From: Buchnera aphidicola (Neophyllaphis podocarpi)
Lineage (GTDB): Bacteria; Pseudomonadota; Gammaproteobacteria; Enterobacterales; Enterobacteriaceae
Direction: 5' to 3'
Length of the DNA: 32,000 nucleotides
Assembly (NCBI RefSeq): GCF_964059055.1
Contig: NZ_OZ060386.1
Coordinates: forward strand, 210,001-242,000
Both the position numbers and the translations under genes were made by a program. Positions within the stretch are counted from its first letter, which is position 1. Every line of letters starts with the position of its first letter. The notes beneath the pieces are model-generated. The model worked only from the letters and a program-made list of their open reading frames with translations, was not told the origin of the DNA and did not search any database. Below are positions 2,354 through 16,428 of the stretch, in pieces.

Positions 2354-3078
2354 CTATTTTAAAAATTTATTTAATTTTTGATACTTTACAGCTATTCCAT
2401 AATTATAACGTAAATCTATATATACAATTTTTTTCTTATAATATATTTCTTCTTTATGTAGTATAGGCCAAATTATTATTAAATTTTTTAATTTTTCAAT
2501 TTTGTCTTTATTACCTATTTCTATTATAATGTTTGAGTTAGTTATTAATTTGCATGAGTATCTTGTTTTCATGTAAAATTCTTTTATCTTTATTCTTTTA
2601 TCTTCTAATATTTTATTAATTTTTTTATATATTACTAATATTTCAGTTTGCTTATTTTTTAATCCATATATTTTAGGAAGGTTATTTTTTATTTGATATA
2701 TTTTAGGTATATAAAATATTTTAGCATTTACATCTATCATGTAGATATCATTCCAATAAGCAATAGGTTCATATAAAATCAGATTTATTTTTAAATTATT
2801 GTCTATTGTTTTTATTTTAATATTTTTTATCCACTCAATATTTTTTAATTTATTTTTTATATAATCTAAGTTATTTTCTATATTTATACTATAATTTATT
2901 AATTTTTCTGTAGTTTTTTTAGTTTCATATTGATTTATATATTTATTATTGTTTAAAACAATTATTTCTGATATTTTATATTTAAAGTATTTATCACATT
3001 TTATATATATTTCTTTAAATAAAAAAAATATTAATATTATTAATATAGATATCAAAAAAATTTTTTTTTAATTATCAT
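2354..3078 (-). CDS. ftsQ: Cell division protein FtsQ, interrupted near the 5' end: ATG at 3078 is out of frame with the body across an A9 tract; the uninterrupted frame is 2354..3055 (TTG start)
   Basis: The 233-aa ORF starts inside the TM helix. Its C-terminal part KIKEFYMKTRYSCKLITNSNIIIEIGNKD...IVYIDLRYNYGIAVKY aligns to E. coli FtsQ [29 protein letters not shown]...ISYVDLRYDSGAAVGW. It sits between ddlB and ftsA as in E. coli. Upstream, ATG ATA ATT A9 T7 GA would read MIIKKKIFLISIL with one extra A. Confidence 0.85.
3061..3069 (-). other. A9 homopolymer (T9 on plus strand) separating the ftsQ ATG from its reading frame; candidate slippage site
   Basis: Counted directly. Plus strand 3051-3070 is atcaaaaaaa ttttttttta. 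The ATG frame ends at TGA 3054..3052. The body frame has TAA at 3070..3068. Confidence 0.8.
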
Positions 3079-3096
3079 TTTATTTTTACTATATTT

Positions 3097-4017
3097 TCAC
3101 TTATTTAAGTTAGCTGATGTTAAAATTTTTAAAATTAATTCTTTAAATTCTATACCTGCTTTCTTTGCAGCTAAAGGGAATAGACTATCATTTGTCATTC
3201 CCGGAATAGTATTTGCTTCTAATAACCATATTTTATTATTATTATCTATTATCAAGTCTATTCTACCAAATCCTGTACAACCTAAAATATTCCAGGCTTT
3301 TTTTACTATTTTTTTTATTTTTTTTTCTTTTTTTATATCTAAACCACAAGGACATATATATTTTGTATTTTTTGATATGTATTTTGCGCTATAATCATAA
3401 AATAAATTTCTTGAATATATTTTAATTATAGGTAAAATATTATTTTCTAAGATTGATACGGTATATTCTTTGCCTTCAATAAAAGGTTCAATGATTATAG
3501 ATTTATATTTACTTAAAGCTTTTTTAATTTTGTTTTTTATTTCTTTACTATCTTTAACTATTATTGAACCTATACTAGAACCTTCATTATTAGGTTTTAT
3601 AAATAATTTTGTCCCTAACTTTATTTTTATTTTTTCTATATCTAATTTTTTTTTTGTAATATTATTTATATGTATGTACTTTGATACAGGTAGATTATAT
3701 CCTTTCCATATTAATTTAGTTCTTATTTTGTCCATTGCTATTGCAGATGACATTACTCCGCTTCCTGTATAAGGAATTTTTAAAGATTCTAAAATAGATT
3801 GAATTATTCCGTCTTCTCCATTTTTTCCATGTAATGCTATAAAAACTTTTGTGAATCCCTCATTTTTTAGTTTAAATATTGGAAAATTAATTGTATCTAT
3901 TGCATAAGCATTAATTCCTAATTTTATTAGTTCTTTTAGAACATTTTTTCCAGACAGTAAAGATATATTTCTTTCTAATGAATTACCTCCTAATAATACA
4001 GCAATCTTTTCACTCAT
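3097..4017 (-). CDS. ddlB: D-alanine--D-alanine ligase
   Basis: The ORF track gives 3097..4035 (MLEVIKMSEK...). I prefer the second ATG at 4017: MSEKIAVLLGG aligns with the E. coli DdlB N-terminus MTDKIAVLLGG, giving 306 aa as in E. coli, and AGAGGT lies 8 nt upstream. Other matches are HGKNGEDG, YTGSGVMSSAIAMDK and LLEANTIPGMT. It ends in TGA. Confidence 0.95.
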   Translation of the reverse strand: MSEKIAVLLGGNSLERNISLLSGKNVLKELIKLGINAYAIDTINFPIFKLKNEGFTKVFIALHGKNGEDGIIQSILESLKIPYTGSGVMSSAIAMDKIRTKLIWKGYNLPVSKYIHINNITKKKLDIEKIKIKLGTKLFIKPNNEGSSIGSIIVKDSKEIKNKIKKALSKYKSIIIEPFIEGKEYTVSILENNILPIIKIYSRNLFYDYSAKYISKNTKYICPCGLDIKKEKKIKKIVKKAWNILGCTGFGRIDLIIDNNNKIWLLEANTIPGMTNDSLFPLAAKKAGIEFKELILKILTSANLNK

Positions 4018-5473: not shown

Positions 5474-6528
5474 TTATAAATCATTAATTAAATTAAAAAT
5501 TTTTTTAGTAGAATTTTTGAAATCAATTTTTTGTGATTTACATATCATTCTTACAATTTCTTTTCTATTCCAAATTTTTAAAATTTCTAAAATTTTCTTT
5601 ACAGATAAGTTTTTTTCGCTTATAATTTTTGCAATTCCCATTTTTTTTAAAATTAATGCATTAAAATATTGTTGTTTATCTTTATGATTATAAGGTATAA
5701 GTATTGATGGTAAATTTATACTTAATATTTCACTTACTGTTAATGCTCCTGATCTACCAATAATCATATCTGTCCATTCATAAGCTTCATCTATGTTTTT
5801 TATAAAATTAACTATTTGATGTTGAAATAATTTATTTTTTAAGTATATTTTTTTTATTCTAAAAAAATCTTTATTTCCAGTTTGATGTAATATTTTGATA
5901 TTGTTTTTAAGTTTTTTTGCTACTTCAACTATAACATTATTTAGTATAATAGATCCTTGACTTCCTCCTAATATCAATATTCGAATTTTTCCTTTTCTTT
6001 TTTGAAATCTTTTAAGAGGTTTATTTATATTTAATATTTCTTCTCTTATCGGATTTCCCACAATATAAGCATTGTTTAAAGTATTAGAAAAAGCTTGCAT
6101 ATTTATATTGGAAATTTTTGATAATATTTTGTTAGTTATTCCTGCCACTGTATTTTGTTCATGTACTAACAAGGGAATTTTACATATTTTTGCAGCTATT
6201 CCTACTGGTCCAGATACATAACCACCCATAACTAATATTACTTTAGGTGAAATTTTTTTAATTATTTTTATAGATTGATAACAAGCATATAAAATTTTTA
6301 TAGGAGATAATATCAATGTTTTGATTTTTTTTCCTACAATACCTTCAATATTTATAAAAAATATTTTTATTCCATATTTCGGAATCATTTTAGATTCTAT
6401 GCCATTTTTTGTGCCAATCCATATTACTTGCCAATTATTTTTTTTGAAATATTTTGCTAAGGTAATACCGGGAAATACATGTCCTCCAGAACCTCCTGCC
6501 GCTATTAAAATTTTTTTTTATTCATCAT
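5474..6528 (-). CDS. murG: Lipid II glycosyltransferase MurG, interrupted at codon 4-7: ATG ATG at 6528 is out of frame with the body across an A9 tract; the ORF-track ORF (5474..6388) lacks the N-terminal G-loop
   Basis: The body frame is open from 6517 and reads ILIAAGGSGGHVFPGITLAKYFKKNNWQVIWIGTKNGIESKMIPKYGIKI. This aligns to E. coli MurG [22 protein letters not shown]...LVPKHGIEI. The rest matches HEQN, GGSQG, GRSGALTVSE and HKDKQQYFNA. AGAAGG lies 8 nt upstream of ATG 6528. Confidence 0.93.
6511..6519 (-). other. A9 homopolymer (T9 on plus strand) separating the murG ATG from its reading frame; candidate slippage site
   Basis: Plus strand 6501-6530 is gctattaaaa ttttttttta ttcatcatta. 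The ATG frame gives MMNKKKF then TAA (6507..6505). The body frame has TAA at 6520..6518. Confidence 0.8.
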
Positions 6529-6550
6529 TATAGACCTTCTTAATTTTTAT

Positions 6551-9019: not shown

Positions 9020-10090
9020 TCATAATGATATAATTCCAATTAAAAATAGTAATAAAGATATAATCCAAAGTCTAACTGTAATTTTGGATTCTTTGTATCC
9101 TTTAATTTCATAGTGATGGTGTATAGGAGCCATATTAAAAATACGTATTTTAAATATTTTAAAACAAATAACTTGTATTATTACTGAAATAGTTTCTATT
9201 ACCAAAACTCCGCCGATAATTATTAATAATATTTCTTGGTGTAGTAATAAAGCAATGATTCCTATAGTTCCACCTAAAGATAATGATCCTATATCTCCCA
9301 TAAATATTTCTGCTGGATAAGTATTAAACCACAAAAAAACTATTCCTGACCCTATAAGTGATGTACAAAATATAATCAATTCACCTGCATTACATATATA
9401 TTGTAAATTGAAATAATTTGATAAATCAATGTTCCCGCTAATAAAGGATATTATAGCAAATATTGTAGCAATTAGAATAACAGGTATTATTGCTAAACCA
9501 TCTAAACCATCTGTGATATTAACACTATTACTAGTTCCTACAATTACAAAATACATTATAATTAAATAAATCCAATTAATTTTAAAATTTATATTTTTTA
9601 TGAATGGAATAGGTAATTCATGTTTTTGATTTATACAATCGATAAATACAAAATATATTATTATAAGAGATATTATTGATAAAAATAAATATTTATATTT
9701 TGCAGTTATACCTTTGGAATTTTTTTTTGTTATTTTATAATAATCATCTATTAATCCAATTATTCCATAACTTATTAATATATATAAAATATACCATATA
9801 TAATTATTTAATAAATCTGACCAAATAATTACAGATATAATAGTTGAAATTATTATAGTTATTCCTCCCATAGTAGGAGTATTTTTTTTGTTATAATGAG
9901 ATGATGGTCCTTCATATCTTATTACTTGATTAAATTGTAAATTACTAAATAATTTTATTATATGTTTTGTTATATACACAGAAAATATTATTGAAGTTAT
10001 AAAACTACATATAGATCTGAAAATTATATAAGTAACAAATTTGTATTTTATATCTAAACAATCTAAATTTTCTATTATTCACATTAACAT
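9020..10090 (-). CDS. mraY: Phospho-N-acetylmuramoyl-pentapeptide transferase MraY with an in-frame TGA at codon 4 (10081..10079); the ORF-track ORF 9020..9979 (GTG) lacks the first TM helix
   Basis: Hand translation from ATG 10090 gives M L M * IIENLDCLDIKYKFVTYIIFRSICSFITSIIFSVYITKHIIKLFSNLQFNQVIRYEGP. This aligns without gaps to E. coli [62 protein letters not shown]. The rest matches TPTMGG, DDY.K, NLTDGLDGLA, MGD.GSL.LGG and APIHHHYE. There is no ATG, GTG or TTG between the TGA and 9979. Confidence 0.92.
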
Positions 10091-11442
10091 GTTATTTTCT
10101 CTTGTATTTTACCTAGAATTTTTTCCATTTTTGAATTACGAGAACCTTTTATTAAAACTATAATATTTTTTTTATGCATGATTAATTTTTTTACTTTATT
10201 AACAAGTTCCTCATGTGTATAAAAATGTTGTCCTTGTTTATTTTGTTTACTGATATGTTGACTTAATTTTCCTATACTAAATATTCTATTAATTTTAGAA
10301 TTTTTGATTTTATTTCCTATAAATTTATGATAATAAGTTGATTTATCACCTAATTCATGCATATCTCCTGTTATTATTATTTTATATCCATTAATTGAAT
10401 TTAAAAAATTTATTGCTGCATTCATAGATCCTATATTCGCATTATAAGTATCGTCAATAAGATATTTTTTTTTGCTTAATTTAATTATTTTTAGTCTTCC
10501 TGTTATTTGTTTTAATTTTGTGATTGTATTTTTTATTTTTTTTAATGGTAAATTCATACAACTAACAATAGCTGTTGCTGCAAGTATATTAGATATATTA
10601 TGGGTTCCCAGTAAAGGAACTTTTATAGGTATCTTATTTTTTCTTGTATTTAAATTGAATTTTAGTCCTTTTGTACTTATATAAATATTATCTGCAAAAA
10701 AATCAGCTTTTCTTTTTATGGAAAAACATAAGACTTTTTTGTCTTTTATTGATTTATTCCATATTTTCCATTTATTACTGTCAGAATTTATTATAATAAT
10801 TCCTTTTTCATCTAAATTTGAAAATATTTCCTGTTTTGCTTTAGCTACTCCATTTATTGATTTAAAACCTTTTAAATGAGCATAATGTATATTATTTATT
10901 AAAACTATGTTTGGTTTTATAATTTTATTAATATATTTTATTTCTCCTGGATTATTAGCTCCTACTTCAATTACTGCATATTTATGATGTTCTTTTAATT
11001 TTAGTAACGTTATAGATACTCCAATCTTATTATTTAAATTTTTTGGTGTAAAAATTGTTTTTCCTTTTTTTTTTAATATTTTTGCAGTTATTTCTTTTAC
11101 TGAAGTTTTTCCAGATGATCCTGTTAATGCTATTAATGTAACATTTGTTGTTTTTCGTAACCATGAAGCTATTTCTTCTAATGCTTTTGATGTGTTTGTT
11201 ACTAATATTTGAGGTATATTATATTGTACTTCCTTTTCTATTAATAATCCTTGAGCTCCCTTAATTATTGCTTCATTGATAAAATGGTGAGCATTAAAAT
11301 TATTACCTACTAAGGCTATAAACAAAGATCCTAGTGTTATTTTTTTGCTATTTATTATAATATTATCAATTTCAGTATATATATTATTAATTATTTTACC
11401 CGATGTGATTTTTGCTATTTTATTTAAGGATATTTTTATCAT
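10084..11442 (-). CDS. murF: UDP-N-acetylmuramoyl-tripeptide--D-alanyl-D-alanine ligase
   Basis: 452 aa, the same length as E. coli MurF. Matches: LTGSSGKTSVKE, NLNN.IGV, DDTYNAN, KGSR and the C-terminus ...ITC (E. coli ...GTC). Confidence 0.97.
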   Translation of the reverse strand: MIKISLNKIAKITSGKIINNIYTEIDNIIINSKKITLGSLFIALVGNNFNAHHFINEAIIKGAQGLLIEKEVQYNIPQILVTNTSKALEEIASWLRKTTNVTLIALTGSSGKTSVKEITAKILKKKGKTIFTPKNLNNKIGVSITLLKLKEHHKYAVIEVGANNPGEIKYINKIIKPNIVLINNIHYAHLKGFKSINGVAKAKQEIFSNLDEKGIIIINSDSNKWKIWNKSIKDKKVLCFSIKRKADFFADNIYISTKGLKFNLNTRKNKIPIKVPLLGTHNISNILAATAIVSCMNLPLKKIKNTITKLKQITGRLKIIKLSKKKYLIDDTYNANIGSMNAAINFLNSINGYKIIITGDMHELGDKSTYYHKFIGNKIKNSKINRIFSIGKLSQHISKQNKQGQHFYTHEELVNKVKKLIMHKKNIIVLIKGSRNSKMEKILGKIQEKITC

Positions 11443-12925
11443 ATAATTTTTTATTTAATATTTTTAATACGGTTTCTTCATCTGAATATTTTATTTTATT
11501 TTTTCCTATCATTTGGTAATTTTCACTTCCTTTTCCTGCTATTAAGATGATATCATTCATACTTGAATTATTTACAGCAACTTTTATAGCCTTTTTCCTA
11601 TCAGGAATTACATAAGCTTTTTTTGGATTTGTAAAACCATCCAAGATATCTTTTATTATTTTATTTGGGTTTTCTGTTCTTGGATTATCATTTGTTATAA
11701 ATACTTTATTTGATAGTTTTTCTGCTATTTTTCCCATTATAGGTCTTTTTGTTTTATCTCTATCTCCGCCGCAACCAAAAATACATGTTAGTTTTTTTTT
11801 TGAATATATTGAATTTATTATTTTTATTACTTTATTTAATGCATCTGGAGTATGAGCATAATCAATTATTATTTTAGGTTTATTTGATACATAAATTTGT
11901 TGCATTCGTCCTATTATAGGTTTTATTTTTTCTACTGTTAATATAATAGAAGATAAAGAATATCCCAAAGATAATAAAGCAGCCATAGATAACAATATAT
12001 TAACTACATTAAAATTTCCTATTAAATTAACTGATATATCCCCATTTCCCCAGCTTGAATTAAAATCAATGATACTTCTAGTATTCTCATGCTTAACTTT
12101 TTTTGCATATATCCATCTTTCTCCATATTTACATTTTAAATTTGTAGTAGCAATATAAATTTTATTTCTTGATTTTATTTTTTTAAACCAATTCATTCCT
12201 ATTTTAGTGCTTATATTTATAATTGGATTTTCAATTTTATGATCAGAAAATAGTTTCCATTTTGTTTTTTCATATTTTTTCATATTTTTATGATAGTCTA
12301 AATGATCTCTACTTATATTTGTAAATATTCCTACTTTAAATGGTATGCTAGATACTCTATATTGATCCAATGCATGTGATGATATTTCTATAGCAACTGT
12401 GTTAACTCTATTTTTTAGAAAAAAATTTAAATAAGACTGTATATCAATAGCTGAATCTGTTGTATTAATAGTTTCTATTAATTTTCCGTATAATCCATTT
12501 CCTAATGTTCCTATAACAGCACTTTTATCTCCTAACAAATTAATCCATTGTGAAATTAATTGAGTTACACTTGTTTTACCATTGGTTCCTGTTACACCTA
12601 TTATATTTAATCTATTTGATGGATTGTTATAAAAATTTCCTGCTATCTTTGATATTTTTTTTCTTATATTTTTTATATAAATAATAGGTATTTTGTTTAT
12701 ATATTTTATTTTTTTATTTTTTACTTTAGACCATGAAATTACAGCATTAGCACCTTTATTTATTGCTTCTTTTATAAATTTATTCGCATCTATTTTATTA
12801 CCTTTTATTGCTATAAATAAATCTTTTTTTTTTATATTTTTACTATTTATTTTTATATTTCTTATAAGAATTTTTCTTAATTGATAATTATTTATTCCTA
12901 ATAATTTATTTAATTTTATATTCAT
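11420..12925 (-). CDS. murE: UDP-N-acetylmuramoyl-L-alanyl-D-glutamate--2,6-diaminopimelate ligase
   Basis: 501 aa. Matches to E. coli MurE: GVTGTNGKTS, SRDHLDYH, DYAHTPDAL, GCGGDRDK.KRP and the DNPR meso-DAP specificity motif (TNDNPRTE). It overlaps the murF start by 23 nt. Confidence 0.97.
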   Translation of the reverse strand: MNIKLNKLLGINNYQLRKILIRNIKINSKNIKKKDLFIAIKGNKIDANKFIKEAINKGANAVISWSKVKNKKIKYINKIPIIYIKNIRKKISKIAGNFYNNPSNRLNIIGVTGTNGKTSVTQLISQWINLLGDKSAVIGTLGNGLYGKLIETINTTDSAIDIQSYLNFFLKNRVNTVAIEISSHALDQYRVSSIPFKVGIFTNISRDHLDYHKNMKKYEKTKWKLFSDHKIENPIINISTKIGMNWFKKIKSRNKIYIATTNLKCKYGERWIYAKKVKHENTRSIIDFNSSWGNGDISVNLIGNFNVVNILLSMAALLSLGYSLSSIILTVEKIKPIIGRMQQIYVSNKPKIIIDYAHTPDALNKVIKIINSIYSKKKLTCIFGCGGDRDKTKRPIMGKIAEKLSNKVFITNDNPRTENPNKIIKDILDGFTNPKKAYVIPDRKKAIKVAVNNSSMNDIILIAGKGSENYQMIGKNKIKYSDEETVLKILNKKLYDKNILK

Positions 12926-14982: not shown

Positions 14983-15921
14983 TTATTTGTTTAATTCAGC
15001 TACTCTTAATATTGCGCTGCGTGCTCGTATATTATTTTGAATTTCATTTTTACTTGGAAATATTCTCCCAATAATTTTTAATATTTTAGGATTTATTTTA
15101 TCTAATTGTATTTTTGTTAGAGGAATATCTTTAGGTAAATTAATTTGTTTGCTATTATTAATCATAAAATGTTTAATAATTCTATCTTCTAAAGAATGAA
15201 AACTAATAGTTAATATTCTTCCTTTATTTTTTAAAATTTTTAAAGAATCTTTTAAAGCAATCTTTATATCTGACAACTCATTATTAATAAAAATTCTAAT
15301 AGCCTGAAAGCTTCTTGTAGCAGGATTTTTATTCTGATATTTTTTAGGAGTAGATTTTTTGATTATTTCAACTAGTTCTTTTGTATATTTGATTGGAGAA
15401 ATTTTATTTTTTTTAACAATAGCTTTTGCTATTTTTTTTGCATATCTTTCTTCTCCTAATTTTTTAAGAACTTGACTTATTTCTTTTTCGCTACTTTTTT
15501 GTAACCATTCTGCTGCTGTAATACCTTTTGTGTTATTCATTCTCATATCTAAATAACTATTTCTTAAAAATGAAAAACCTCTGTTTTTATCTGCAATTTG
15601 CATTGAAGACATACCAAGATCTAATATTATACCATCTATTTTTTTTATAATATTAAATTTTATTGCATATTTTAATATCATTGCGAATGATCCATGTATT
15701 ACTTTTATTCGGTGATCTTTAATTCTTTTTGCAATTTCAATTGCTTTAGGATCTTTATCTATAACAAATATTCTTCCATATTCATTTAATTTATTTAAAA
15801 TTTTATTAGTGTGACCGCCGCAACCGAAAGTTCCGTCTATATAAATTCCATTTTTTTTTATTTTTAAATTTTCTATAGTTTCATTTAACAATACTGTTAT
15901 ATGTTGTGATTTATTTTTCAT
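14983..15921 (-). CDS. rsmH: 16S rRNA (cytosine1402-N4)-methyltransferase RsmH (MraW)
   Basis: 312 aa (E. coli 313). Matches: HITVLLNE, YIDGTFGCGGH, DLGMSS.Q, GFSF, ISFHSLEDR and RARSAILR. Confidence 0.96.
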   Translation of the reverse strand: MKNKSQHITVLLNETIENLKIKKNGIYIDGTFGCGGHTNKILNKLNEYGRIFVIDKDPKAIEIAKRIKDHRIKVIHGSFAMILKYAIKFNIIKKIDGIILDLGMSSMQIADKNRGFSFLRNSYLDMRMNNTKGITAAEWLQKSSEKEISQVLKKLGEERYAKKIAKAIVKKNKISPIKYTKELVEIIKKSTPKKYQNKNPATRSFQAIRIFINNELSDIKIALKDSLKILKNKGRILTISFHSLEDRIIKHFMINNSKQINLPKDIPLTKIQLDKINPKILKIIGRIFPSKNEIQNNIRARSAILRVAELNK

Positions 15922-15951
15922 TTAGCTATAATTTATTTTTTGATTTATACT

Positions 15952-16428
15952 TTATCCGCGTGTTATTCCTATAATTCCTGAACGTACTATTTCAATTACA
16001 TCTGATATTTCTCTAATAATTTTTAAAAAAGCATCTAATTTATTACTATTACCAGAAAGTTGAACAGTGTAAATATTAGATGTTACATCTACTATATTAC
16101 CTCTAAAAATTTCTGTGTTACTTTTTATTTCTTCTCTGATGTTTTCATTTGTTTTAATTTTTACTAACATTATTTCTCTTTCTACATATTCTCCTTGGCT
16201 AAAGTTTTGTATTCTTAAAACGTCAATTAGTTTATGCAATTGTTTTTCTATTTGTTCTAATACTTGAATTTTACCTACAGTTAATATAGTTATTCTTGAC
16301 ATAGTAGGATCTTCTGTTGGAGCTACAGTCATGCTTTCTATATTATATCCTCTTTGTGAGAATAGTCCTATAACTCTAGATAATGCTCCTGATTCGTTTT
16401 CTAGAAGTATTGATAAAACTCTCTTCAT
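15952..16428 (-). CDS. ilvH: Acetolactate synthase III small (regulatory) subunit
   Basis: 158 aa. [42 protein letters not shown] is nearly identical to the E. coli IlvH N-terminus. AAGGGGA lies upstream of the ATG. Confidence 0.97.

What the first reader, a model, noticed from the sequence alone, without database searches (positions are those of the whole stretch)
10073..10090. mraY has an in-frame TGA at codon 4, exactly where E. coli MraY has tryptophan
The minus strand reads ATG TTA ATG TGA ATA ATA GAA AAT TTA GAT ..., i.e. M L M * I I E N L D .... An ungapped alignment to E. coli [10 protein letters not shown]... holds for more than 60 residues (Y21, F24-R25, I27, S29, T32, GP at 61-62). 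It places the TGA on Trp4, which looks like a TGG to TGA transition in the direction of the A+T mutational bias.

Downstream there is no ATG, GTG or TTG for 34 codons, yet this stretch, the first TM helix, is clearly conserved. It is therefore presumably still translated.

Possible explanations:
- low-level UGA readthrough by tRNA-Trp, the known intermediate on the route to UGA=Trp reassignment in tiny A+T-rich genomes
- initiation at ATA or ATT just after the stop
- a base-call error

TGA is otherwise rare as a stop here: 2 of about 27 genes, namely ddlB and mraY itself. Reading through those would add 15 codons to ddlB and 4 to mraY.
Basis: partly seen in the sequence, partly recalled or inferred. 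Interest (0 to 1): 0.65.

Follow-up and report, generated by a model that had tools for sequence, protein, structure and literature searches.

The report
Conserved early stop codon in Buchnera mraY
The cell-wall gene mraY of an aphid's bacterial symbiont (Buchnera of Neophyllaphis) has a real, inherited stop codon at its fourth codon yet is still kept by selection, so the protein must be made by restarting just after the stop or by occasionally reading through it; this looks like ordinary genome decay, not a change of genetic code.

Summary
On the minus strand, 10090..10079 reads ATG TTA ATG TGA. The TGA aligns with Trp4 (TGG) of E. coli MraY. Another Buchnera carries ATG TTA ATG TGG, one G-to-A transition away.

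It is not a base-call error. The same TGA is present in three distinct Neophyllaphis Buchnera genomes from two aphid species.

mraY is still under purifying selection: dN/dS is 0.18, like its neighbours. One lineage has no ATG, GTG or TTG before codon 74, so the gene must be expressed despite the stop.

The window gives no sign of UGA=Trp recoding. All 66 other Trp codons in 27 genes are TGG. TGA ends 2 of the 27 genes, and both stops are conserved between the aphid species. Position 4 is also not an essential Trp; most aphidine Buchnera have F, L or M there.

The only Trp codon lying within the first 10 codons of any gene is the one that became TGA. This favours a rescue that works only near the 5' end. 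I think (re)initiation at the ATA directly after the stop is most likely; this is also NCBI's annotated start. Readthrough of UGA-A by tRNA-Trp is the main rival.

I could not reach prfB or trnW of this genome.

The parts
10099..10103 (-). Weak Shine-Dalgarno-like AAGAG inside the murF 3' end. It lies 8 nt upstream of ATG 10090. The N. podocarpi strain has AAGGAG and E. coli has GGAG at the same spacing.
10088..10090 (-). Ancestral mraY start codon ATG (codon 1). It overlaps the last murF codons as ACATGTTAA, the same arrangement as in E. coli.
10084..10086 (-). murF stop codon TAA. It forms TAATG with mraY codon 3.
10082..10084 (-). In-frame ATG (mraY codon 3), followed directly by the TGA. 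For ribosomes restarting after murF this is a start-stop pair.
10079..10081 (-). In-frame TGA at mraY codon 4, aligned with Trp4 (TGG) of E. coli and of another Buchnera. The next base is A. Conserved in three Neophyllaphis Buchnera genomes.
10073..10078 (-). ATA ATA (codons 5-6). ATA 10078-10076 is the start codon used for the public 352-aa protein (MIENLD...). It is the candidate near-cognate (re)initiation site.
9980..10078 (-). Codons 5-37, encoding the N-terminal segment and first transmembrane helix. It is open, contains no ATG, GTG or TTG, and still matches E. coli residues E7, R25, I27 and S29.
9977..9979 (-). GTG (codon 38), the first canonical start after the TGA. It is ATC in N. podocarpi Buchnera, so it cannot be the general start.
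9020..10078 (-). mraY body (352 codons plus TGA stop at 9022-9020). It is a full-length homologue of E. coli MraY and is under purifying selection.

Best explanation
The window comes from Buchnera aphidicola of a Neophyllaphis aphid (about 559 kb genome, 22% G+C in this window).

In the common ancestor of the N. podocarpi and N. varicolor symbionts, the Trp4 codon of mraY mutated from TGG to TGA. This is a G-to-A change in the direction of the A+T bias, and it became fixed. These steps are shown.

The gene is not dead. It has stayed open and under purifying selection since then, so MraY is still made (shown by inference from dN/dS).

The following mechanism is inferred, not shown. Ribosomes arrive by translating murF or by binding at the old SD/ATG. 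They terminate at the murF TAA or at the TGA after a 1- or 3-residue peptide. A small fraction then (re)initiate with fMet-tRNA on the near-cognate AUA directly after the stop, at codon 5. The product lacks only the four non-essential N-terminal residues.

A low yield is tolerable for three reasons. MraY is a low-abundance enzyme. Peptidoglycan synthesis is dispensable enough to have been lost in many Buchnera lineages. Ile codons, which are near-cognate starts, make up 24% of the gene.

No change of the genetic code is involved.
For: - Real and inherited: the same TGA is in CP135039, CP135042, two Logan assemblies and the window genome. The window differs from CP135042 by 0.5% and from CP135039 at dS about 0.14.
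- Ancestral TGG: E. coli has ATG TTA GTT TGG and a 644-kb Buchnera has ATG TTA ATG TGG. TGG is at codon 4 in 48 of 67 gammaproteobacterial loci.
- Still functional: mraY dN/dS is 0.18, against 0.03-0.29 for 14 of the 15 other genes compared (ftsQ 0.57). In the body, 16.5 non-synonymous changes were observed against about 110 expected under neutrality.
- No canonical start is available: none in codons 5-37, and GTG-38 is absent in N. podocarpi.
- The first residues are dispensable. Position 4 is F, L or M in most aphidine Buchnera and E, Y, L or F in other Gammaproteobacteria. Homology to Aquifex and Clostridium MraY starts only at residues 16 and 22.
- Position specificity: none of the 66 TGG codons in the 27 genes lies within the first 10 codons; the earliest is codon 22. 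The one Trp position that is start-proximal is the one that became TGA, 1/1 against 0/66. Rescue limited to the 5' end predicts this; position-independent readthrough does not.
- Other start-proximal lesions in the same cluster are tolerated: murG, ftsQ and murE.
- AUA initiates at 1-2% of AUG in E. coli (bioRxiv 10.1101/063800).
- NCBI annotates this ATA as the start in all three genomes.
Against: - There is no direct evidence for the N-terminus of the protein. The public ATA start is an annotation choice, not a measurement.
- AUA is a poor start codon. Two canonical AUGs lie 3 and 9 nt upstream and would compete for restarting ribosomes.
- The SD-like motif is placed for ATG 10090 and is about 20 nt from the ATA.
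- The UGA-A context is the one reported to favour tRNA-Trp readthrough (PMC10540940). Readthrough would explain equally well why the gene survives.
- An early stop is also the least harmful place for a leaky stop, so the position argument is not decisive.
- Codons 5-37 show 4 non-synonymous and 1 synonymous change between the two host species (ratio about 1). The numbers are too small to interpret (Fisher p = 0.15).
Confidence: 0.5

Rival explanations
1. Leaky decoding. Ribosomes start at the ancestral ATG 10090 (or ATG 10084), and a small fraction of them read UGA-A with the normal tRNA-Trp(CCA). This gives full-length MLMW... MraY while RF2 remains functional. It is the same situation proposed for in-frame UGAs in Providencia siddallii strains that keep prfB and trnW(CCA).
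For: - The TGA sits exactly on the ancestral Trp codon, and the next base is A. A 3' A is reported to favour UGA readthrough by tRNA-Trp (Engelberg-Kulka 1981 and Kopelowitz 1992, as cited in PMC10540940).
- The SD-like motif and the ATG are kept at the ancestral spacing.
- There is precedent in another reduced gammaproteobacterial symbiont that uses code 11.
Against: - No other in-frame TGA occurs among 66 Trp codons in 27 genes, although G-to-A is the favoured mutation. The only case lies where a restart can also rescue.
- The ATG and SD are held in place by the overlapping murF coding sequence anyway.
- Trp is not required at position 4.
- The genuine TGA stops of ddlB and erpA are also followed by A and are conserved, so this context is not avoided at real stops.
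Confidence: 0.3
2. Onset of genome-wide UGA-to-Trp reassignment. RF2 is lost, damaged or weakened, or tRNA-Trp is altered (UCA anticodon or a Hirsh-type D-arm change). UGA would then be read as Trp fairly efficiently throughout this Buchnera lineage.
For: - The genome is small and A+T-rich (22% G+C in this window).
- The TGA is on a Trp codon.
- Such transitions are known in other insect and leech symbionts.
- prfB and trnW of this genome could not be inspected.
Against: - 66 of 67 Trp positions in the window are TGG.
- TGA terminates ddlB and mraY in both host species, and also erpA. That is about 10% of stops.
- prfB is scored present in all 47 Buchnera genomes visible in Table S2 of PMC11193766.
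- Buchnera is treated as code 11 in recent surveys.
Confidence: 0.05
3. mraY is an early-stage pseudogene. The nonsense codon abolishes expression and the intact remainder simply has not decayed yet. Peptidoglycan synthesis would be on its way out, as in many other Buchnera.
For: - mraY and other mur genes are absent from many Buchnera lineages, such as Cinara, Hormaphidinae and Drepanosiphum (Table S2 of PMC11193766).
- Neighbouring murG, ftsQ and (in one strain) murE also carry 5' lesions.
- ftsQ has dN/dS 0.57.
Against: - Since the split of the two host species (dS about 0.14), the mraY body has dN/dS 0.15, with 16.5 non-synonymous changes against about 110 expected if neutral.
- It has no further stop or indel in any of three genomes.
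- All invariant catalytic residues are kept.
Confidence: 0.08
4. Only a shorter product starting at GTG 9979 (codon 38) or further downstream is made, lacking the first transmembrane helix.
For: - GTG 9979 is the first canonical start after the stop in the window and in CP135042.
- The Logan gene callers chose it.
- The substitution pattern in codons 5-37 looks relaxed.
Against: - The GTG is ATC in N. podocarpi Buchnera. There the next canonical start is Met74, inside the conserved TPTMGG motif.
- No SD-like motif precedes the GTG.
- Codons 5-37 remain open and keep residues that are invariant across E. coli, Blochmannia and Buchnera.
Confidence: 0.04
5. Sequencing or assembly error: the true codon is TGG.
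For: None found.
Against: The TGA is identical in three distinct genomes and in two independent read assemblies from two host species. The site is not in a homopolymer.
Confidence: 0.01

Closest known systems
[quoted passage not shown] 2023, PMC10540940)
   Same: Both are reduced, A+T-rich gammaproteobacterial symbionts. Both have TGG-to-TGA at a Trp codon in a gene that otherwise looks functional. Both have A after the UGA. In both, TGA is still used as a stop elsewhere.
   Different: There, about nine genes are affected and the UGAs are internal, so only readthrough can rescue them. Here a single case was found among 27 genes. It is at codon 4, where a restart immediately downstream gives an almost full-length protein.
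Translational reinitiation after early nonsense mutations (classical lacI and phage T4 rIIB restarts; my own knowledge, not checked here)
   Same: A stop codon lies within the first few codons of a gene. Ribosomes that terminate resume at a nearby in-frame initiation codon, giving a slightly shortened, active protein.
   Different: The classical restarts use AUG, GUG or UUG. Here the only nearby in-frame candidates are near-cognate AUA/AUU codons, and nothing has been measured.
Natural non-canonical start codons (AUU of E. coli infC and pcnB; AUA/AUU/AUC allowed in translation table 11)
   Same: An Ile codon is used as an initiator at a low rate, 1-2% of AUG for AUA in E. coli.
   Different: infC's AUU is a conserved regulatory device. 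Here the ATA is simply the ordinary codon 5 (Leu5 in E. coli) that happens to follow a new stop.
Poly(A)-tract frameshifts rescued by transcriptional slippage in Buchnera and Blochmannia (Tamas et al. 2008, as cited in PMC10540940)
   Same: It is the same organism group and the same principle: a disabling mutation is fixed by drift, and the gene is kept alive by low-fidelity expression. The neighbouring murG shows this type of lesion.
   Different: The mraY lesion is a base substitution creating a stop, not an indel in a homopolymer. Slippage cannot repair it.
UGA=Trp reassigned symbionts (Hodgkinia, Zinderia, Nasuia, Stammera, P. siddallii PSAC; code 4)
   Same: UGA sits on an ancestral Trp codon in a tiny A+T-biased genome.
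   Different: In those genomes 20-70% of genes carry Trp-UGA and prfB is lost or broken. Here it is 1 of 27 genes, and TGA stops are conserved.

Membership tests
MraY (phospho-N-acetylmuramoyl-pentapeptide transferase, Pfam PF00953) | Full-length sequence homology to characterised MraY | tested here: met
   phmmer against PDB: E. coli MraY 8g01, E = 9e-117, residues 1-355 aligned to 1-356. Aquifex 4j72 gives 4e-76. PF00953 is precomputed for the window protein.
MraY (phospho-N-acetylmuramoyl-pentapeptide transferase, Pfam PF00953) | Conserved catalytic motifs (DD, NxxNxxDGxDGL, HHH) | tested here: met
   D115, D116, N188, N191, D194-G195-L196-D197-G198-L199 and H324-H326 are invariant in the alignment with E. 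coli, Blochmannia and Buchnera.
MraY (phospho-N-acetylmuramoyl-pentapeptide transferase, Pfam PF00953) | dcw-cluster synteny murF-mraY-murD with the murF/mraY overlap | tested here: met
   Gene order in the window and in E. coli K-12. The ATGTTA(A/G) overlap is conserved.
Genomes with UGA reassigned to Trp (genetic code 4) | Many in-frame UGAs at conserved Trp positions across genes | tested here: not met
   1 TGA against 66 TGG in 27 genes of the window.
Genomes with UGA reassigned to Trp (genetic code 4) | UGA no longer used as a stop codon | tested here: not met
   ddlB and mraY end in TGA in the window and in N. podocarpi Buchnera. erpA also ends in TGA.
Genomes with UGA reassigned to Trp (genetic code 4) | Loss or inactivation of prfB (RF2) | not testable with these tools
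   prfB is outside the window and I found no way to fetch it from this genome. It is scored present in all 47 other Buchnera visible in Table S2 of PMC11193766; the Neophyllaphis columns are cut off.
Genomes with UGA reassigned to Trp (genetic code 4) | tRNA-Trp with UCA anticodon or a readthrough-promoting change | not testable with these tools
   No tRNA gene is present in the window or in the 21-kb locus L086.
Readthrough-dependent UGA genes in code-11 symbionts (P. siddallii PSOF/PSLP type) | In-frame UGA on an ancestral Trp codon in a gene under purifying selection, with 3' A | tested here: met
Readthrough-dependent UGA genes in code-11 symbionts (P. siddallii PSOF/PSLP type) | The stop is internal, so no downstream restart could give a functional protein | tested here: not met
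   The stop is at codon 4. A product starting at codon 5 lacks only four poorly conserved residues.
Restart after an early nonsense codon | Nonsense codon within the first few codons, with an in-frame initiation codon close downstream | tested here: inconclusive
   The stop at codon 4 is met. Only near-cognate ATA/ATT codons follow, with no ATG, GTG or TTG for 33 codons. AUA works at 1-2% of AUG in E. coli.
Restart after an early nonsense codon | An N-terminally shortened protein is actually produced | not testable with these tools
   This needs proteomics or a reporter assay. There is only indirect support from dN/dS 0.18.
Poly(A) slippage-rescued genes of Buchnera | Frameshift inside a long A/T homopolymer | tested here: not met
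   The mraY lesion is a substitution in ATGTGAATA, with no homopolymer. The feature is met by neighbouring murG.

The most novel reading that the evidence does not exclude
The Neophyllaphis lineage of Buchnera is at the very first step of UGA-to-Trp reassignment. UGA would already be decoded as Trp often enough, through weakened RF2 or an altered tRNA-Trp, to keep an envelope gene alive, and further Trp-UGA codons would exist elsewhere in the genome. This would be the first such case in Buchnera, the best-studied insect symbiont, and it would be caught with only one or a few codons converted.
Probability: 0.07. Interest if true: 0.7.

Novelty: new member of a known kind. Interest (0 to 1): 0.3.

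Why it matters
The finding is a clean natural example of how a drift-ridden, A+T-biased symbiont tolerates a nonsense mutation in a gene it still needs. It shows that 5'-proximal lesions are the ones that survive.

It has practical value for annotation. The ATA (mraY) and ATT (murG) starts in the public records are workarounds for lesions, not evidence of unusual start-codon usage.

It also gives a well-defined test case for the two competing first steps discussed for codon reassignment: readthrough against escape by restart. The sequence context is only 12 nt long and can be moved into an E. coli reporter.

If readthrough were shown, or more Trp-UGA codons found, it would extend the 'pre-reassignment' state described in Providencia siddallii to Buchnera.

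Tried and rejected
- prfB and trnW of this genome: I found no route to them. Those loci served only as background for codon 4.
- Supplementary Table S2 of PMC11193766 is stored with only 47 of 90 columns, and the Neophyllaphis columns are missing.
- Extending the window: look-ups with the window's ftsA and rnhB products found nothing on record.
- No tRNA gene is present in the window or in L086.
- An RNA element at the junction is rejected. There was no Rfam hit in the window. The 131-nt junction folds no better than shuffles, z = +0.7.
- Selenocysteine is rejected: no SECIS-like structure was found. From general knowledge, Buchnera has no sel genes.
- Slippage or frameshift repair of mraY is rejected, because the site has no homopolymer.
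- The SD analysis is of limited use. Many genes in the window have no detectable SD.
- The 313-aa JGI MraY (P0151) looked like a second truncated Buchnera MraY. It is only a gene-caller start choice; its DNA has an intact ATG TTA ATG TGG.
- The murG row used a wrong frame and should be ignored. The murG frame was read.

Full report
**What is there.** On the minus strand the window reads ATG(10090-10088) TTA ATG(10084-10082) TGA(10081-10079) ATA(10078-10076) ATA GAA AAT TTA GAT. This translates to M L M * I I E N L D. The murF stop TAA (10086-10084) lies inside this string, giving ACATGTTAATG. E. coli K-12 has the same overlap...ACA TGT TAG for murF and ATG TTA GTT TGG CTG for mraY.

With W placed at the stop, the protein aligns to E. 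coli MraY (PDB 8g01, N-terminus MLVWLAEHL) from residue 1. The alignment is ungapped for about 150 residues and has E = 9e-117. After it there is no ATG, GTG or TTG for 33 codons, and GTG 9979 is codon 38.

**Where it comes from.** The window's own MraY is in the public protein collection as a 352-aa product starting MIENLD. That means it is annotated from the ATA directly after the TGA, on a 559,180-bp contig. Its cluster mates are MraY of Buchnera aphidicola from Neophyllaphis aphids. CP135039 is the N. podocarpi symbiont and CP135042 the N. varicolor symbiont (Sci Data 2024, PMC11193766). The window has 22% G+C.

**Not an error.** The 12-nt string with the TGA is identical in CP135039, CP135042, two Logan read assemblies and the window. 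The window differs from CP135042 at 38 of 7059 positions, so it is a third genome. CP135039 is diverged at dS about 0.14. By parsimony the TGA predates the split of the two host species.

**Ancestral state.** A 644-kb Buchnera from a JGI aphid metagenome reads ATG TTA ATG TGG TTT, exactly one G-to-A transition from the window. In 67 full-length gammaproteobacterial loci, codon 4 is TGG in 48 and E, Y, L or F in the rest. Among aphidine Buchnera, position 4 is W in about eight sequences and F, L or M in most. The codon was therefore TGG, but Trp at this position is not required. Homology to Aquifex and Clostridium MraY begins only at residues 16 and 22.

**The gene is alive.** Between the window and N. 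podocarpi Buchnera, mraY has dN/dS 0.18. Fourteen of the 15 other genes compared have 0.03-0.29, and ftsQ has 0.57. In the body (codon 38 onward) there are 16.5 non-synonymous changes, where about 110 would be expected under neutrality. There are no further stops or indels in any genome, and all catalytic motifs are intact.

In N. podocarpi Buchnera, GTG-38 is ATC. The next canonical start is Met74, inside the TPTMGG motif. Translation must therefore get past or start just after the TGA. Codons 5-37 show 4 non-synonymous and 1 synonymous change, which is too few to interpret (Fisher p = 0.15).

**Not a code change, as far as the window shows.**
- The 27 genes contain 66 TGG codons and no other in-frame TGA.
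- TGA ends ddlB and mraY in both host species, and also erpA just outside the window.
- prfB is scored present in all 47 Buchnera visible in Table S2 of PMC11193766, though the Neophyllaphis columns are not held.
- I could not fetch prfB or trnW from this genome. No tRNA gene lies in the window or in L086.

**Mechanism.** Two routes can give a functional protein.

(a) (Re)initiation at AUA codon 5, after termination at the murF UAA or at the UGA. AUA initiates at 1-2% of AUG in E. coli, and this is the annotated start.

(b) Readthrough of UGA-A by tRNA-Trp. The 3' A is the context reported to favour it, and the same explanation was proposed for Providencia siddallii strains that keep prfB and trnW-CCA (PMC10540940).

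The SD-like motif is AAGAG in the window and AAGGAG in N. podocarpi. It lies 8 nt before ATG 10090 and about 20 nt from the ATA. This fits (b), or a restart after a mini-ORF, better than direct binding at the ATA. However, many genes here have no SD at all.

What tips me towards (a) is position. No TGG in the 27 genes lies within the first 10 codons. The single start-proximal Trp codon is the one that became TGA, 1/1 against 0/66. The same cluster also tolerates other start-proximal lesions, described below. This argument is weakened by the fact that an early leaky stop is also the least costly kind. I put (a) at about 0.5 and (b) at about 0.3. Both may contribute.

**Comparison with known cases.** The nearest described case is the set of in-frame UGAs in P. 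siddallii PSOF and PSLP. The difference is that those are internal and number about nine per genome. The classical analogue of route (a) is reinitiation after early nonsense mutations in lacI and T4 rIIB (my own knowledge). The finding is a new instance of a known kind of event, and I found no description of it in the papers searched.

**Other lesions seen in the cluster.**
- murG has its SD and ATGATG start (6528-6523) in a different frame from the body. The two are separated by an A9 tract (6519-6511); A10 would join them. This is conserved in both host species and annotated from ATT.
- ftsQ in the window has a 4-nt deletion after an A9 tract and restarts at TTG 3055.
- murE carries an A10 tract (12833-12824) that is A9, and therefore frameshifted, in CP135042.

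Noticed in passing
window 6503-6540, minus strand (murG 5' end): The murG body (starting KKILIAAGGSGGH) has no canonical start. A good SD (AGAAGG, 6540-6535) and ATG ATG (6528-6523) lie in another frame and are separated from the body by an A9 tract (6519-6511). A10 would make one ORF, MMNKKKILIAAGG. The same A9 is present in N. podocarpi and N. varicolor Buchnera, where NCBI annotates an ATT start (345 aa). It looks like the Buchnera poly(A) frameshift rescued by transcriptional slippage.
   Followed up: partly
window 3053-3078, minus strand (ftsQ 5' end): Relative to N. podocarpi Buchnera, the window lacks 4 nt (CATT) just after an A9 tract (3069-3061). This puts the ftsQ ATG (3078-3076) out of frame, and the ORF resumes at TTG 3055. 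ftsQ also has the highest dN/dS in the cluster (0.57).
   Followed up: partly
window 12824-12833, minus strand (murE codons about 31-34); L002 position about 247: The A10 tract in murE is A9 in CP135042 and in its Logan assembly. This frameshifts murE there, and NCBI calls a 464-aa product instead of 501 aa. It is either a strain polymorphism at a slippery tract or a homopolymer miscall.
   Followed up: partly
window 15921-15952: The dcw cluster here runs rsmH to ftsZ, with ilvH and ilvI directly upstream of rsmH. No mraZ ORF lies between them.
   Followed up: no
Table S2 of PMC11193766 (not a window coordinate): mraY, murG and other peptidoglycan genes are scored absent in many Buchnera lineages (Cinara, Hormaphidinae, Drepanosiphum, Greenidea and others). 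prfB is scored present in all 47 visible genomes. The pathway is therefore dispensable in some lineages, which is the background for the tolerated 5' lesions seen here.
   Followed up: partly
L087 1-885 (JGI Buchnera contig, murF): murF is called as two pieces (272+ aa and 194 aa). The second piece ends in a different frame from the usual TGT TAA, next to an A8 run before the mraY ATG. This is possibly another homopolymer frameshift or an assembly error.
   Followed up: no
window 3055-3099, minus strand (after the ddlB stop): The first in-frame stop after the ddlB TGA is another TGA, 15 codons on, and a TAA follows 4 codons later.
   Followed up: yes
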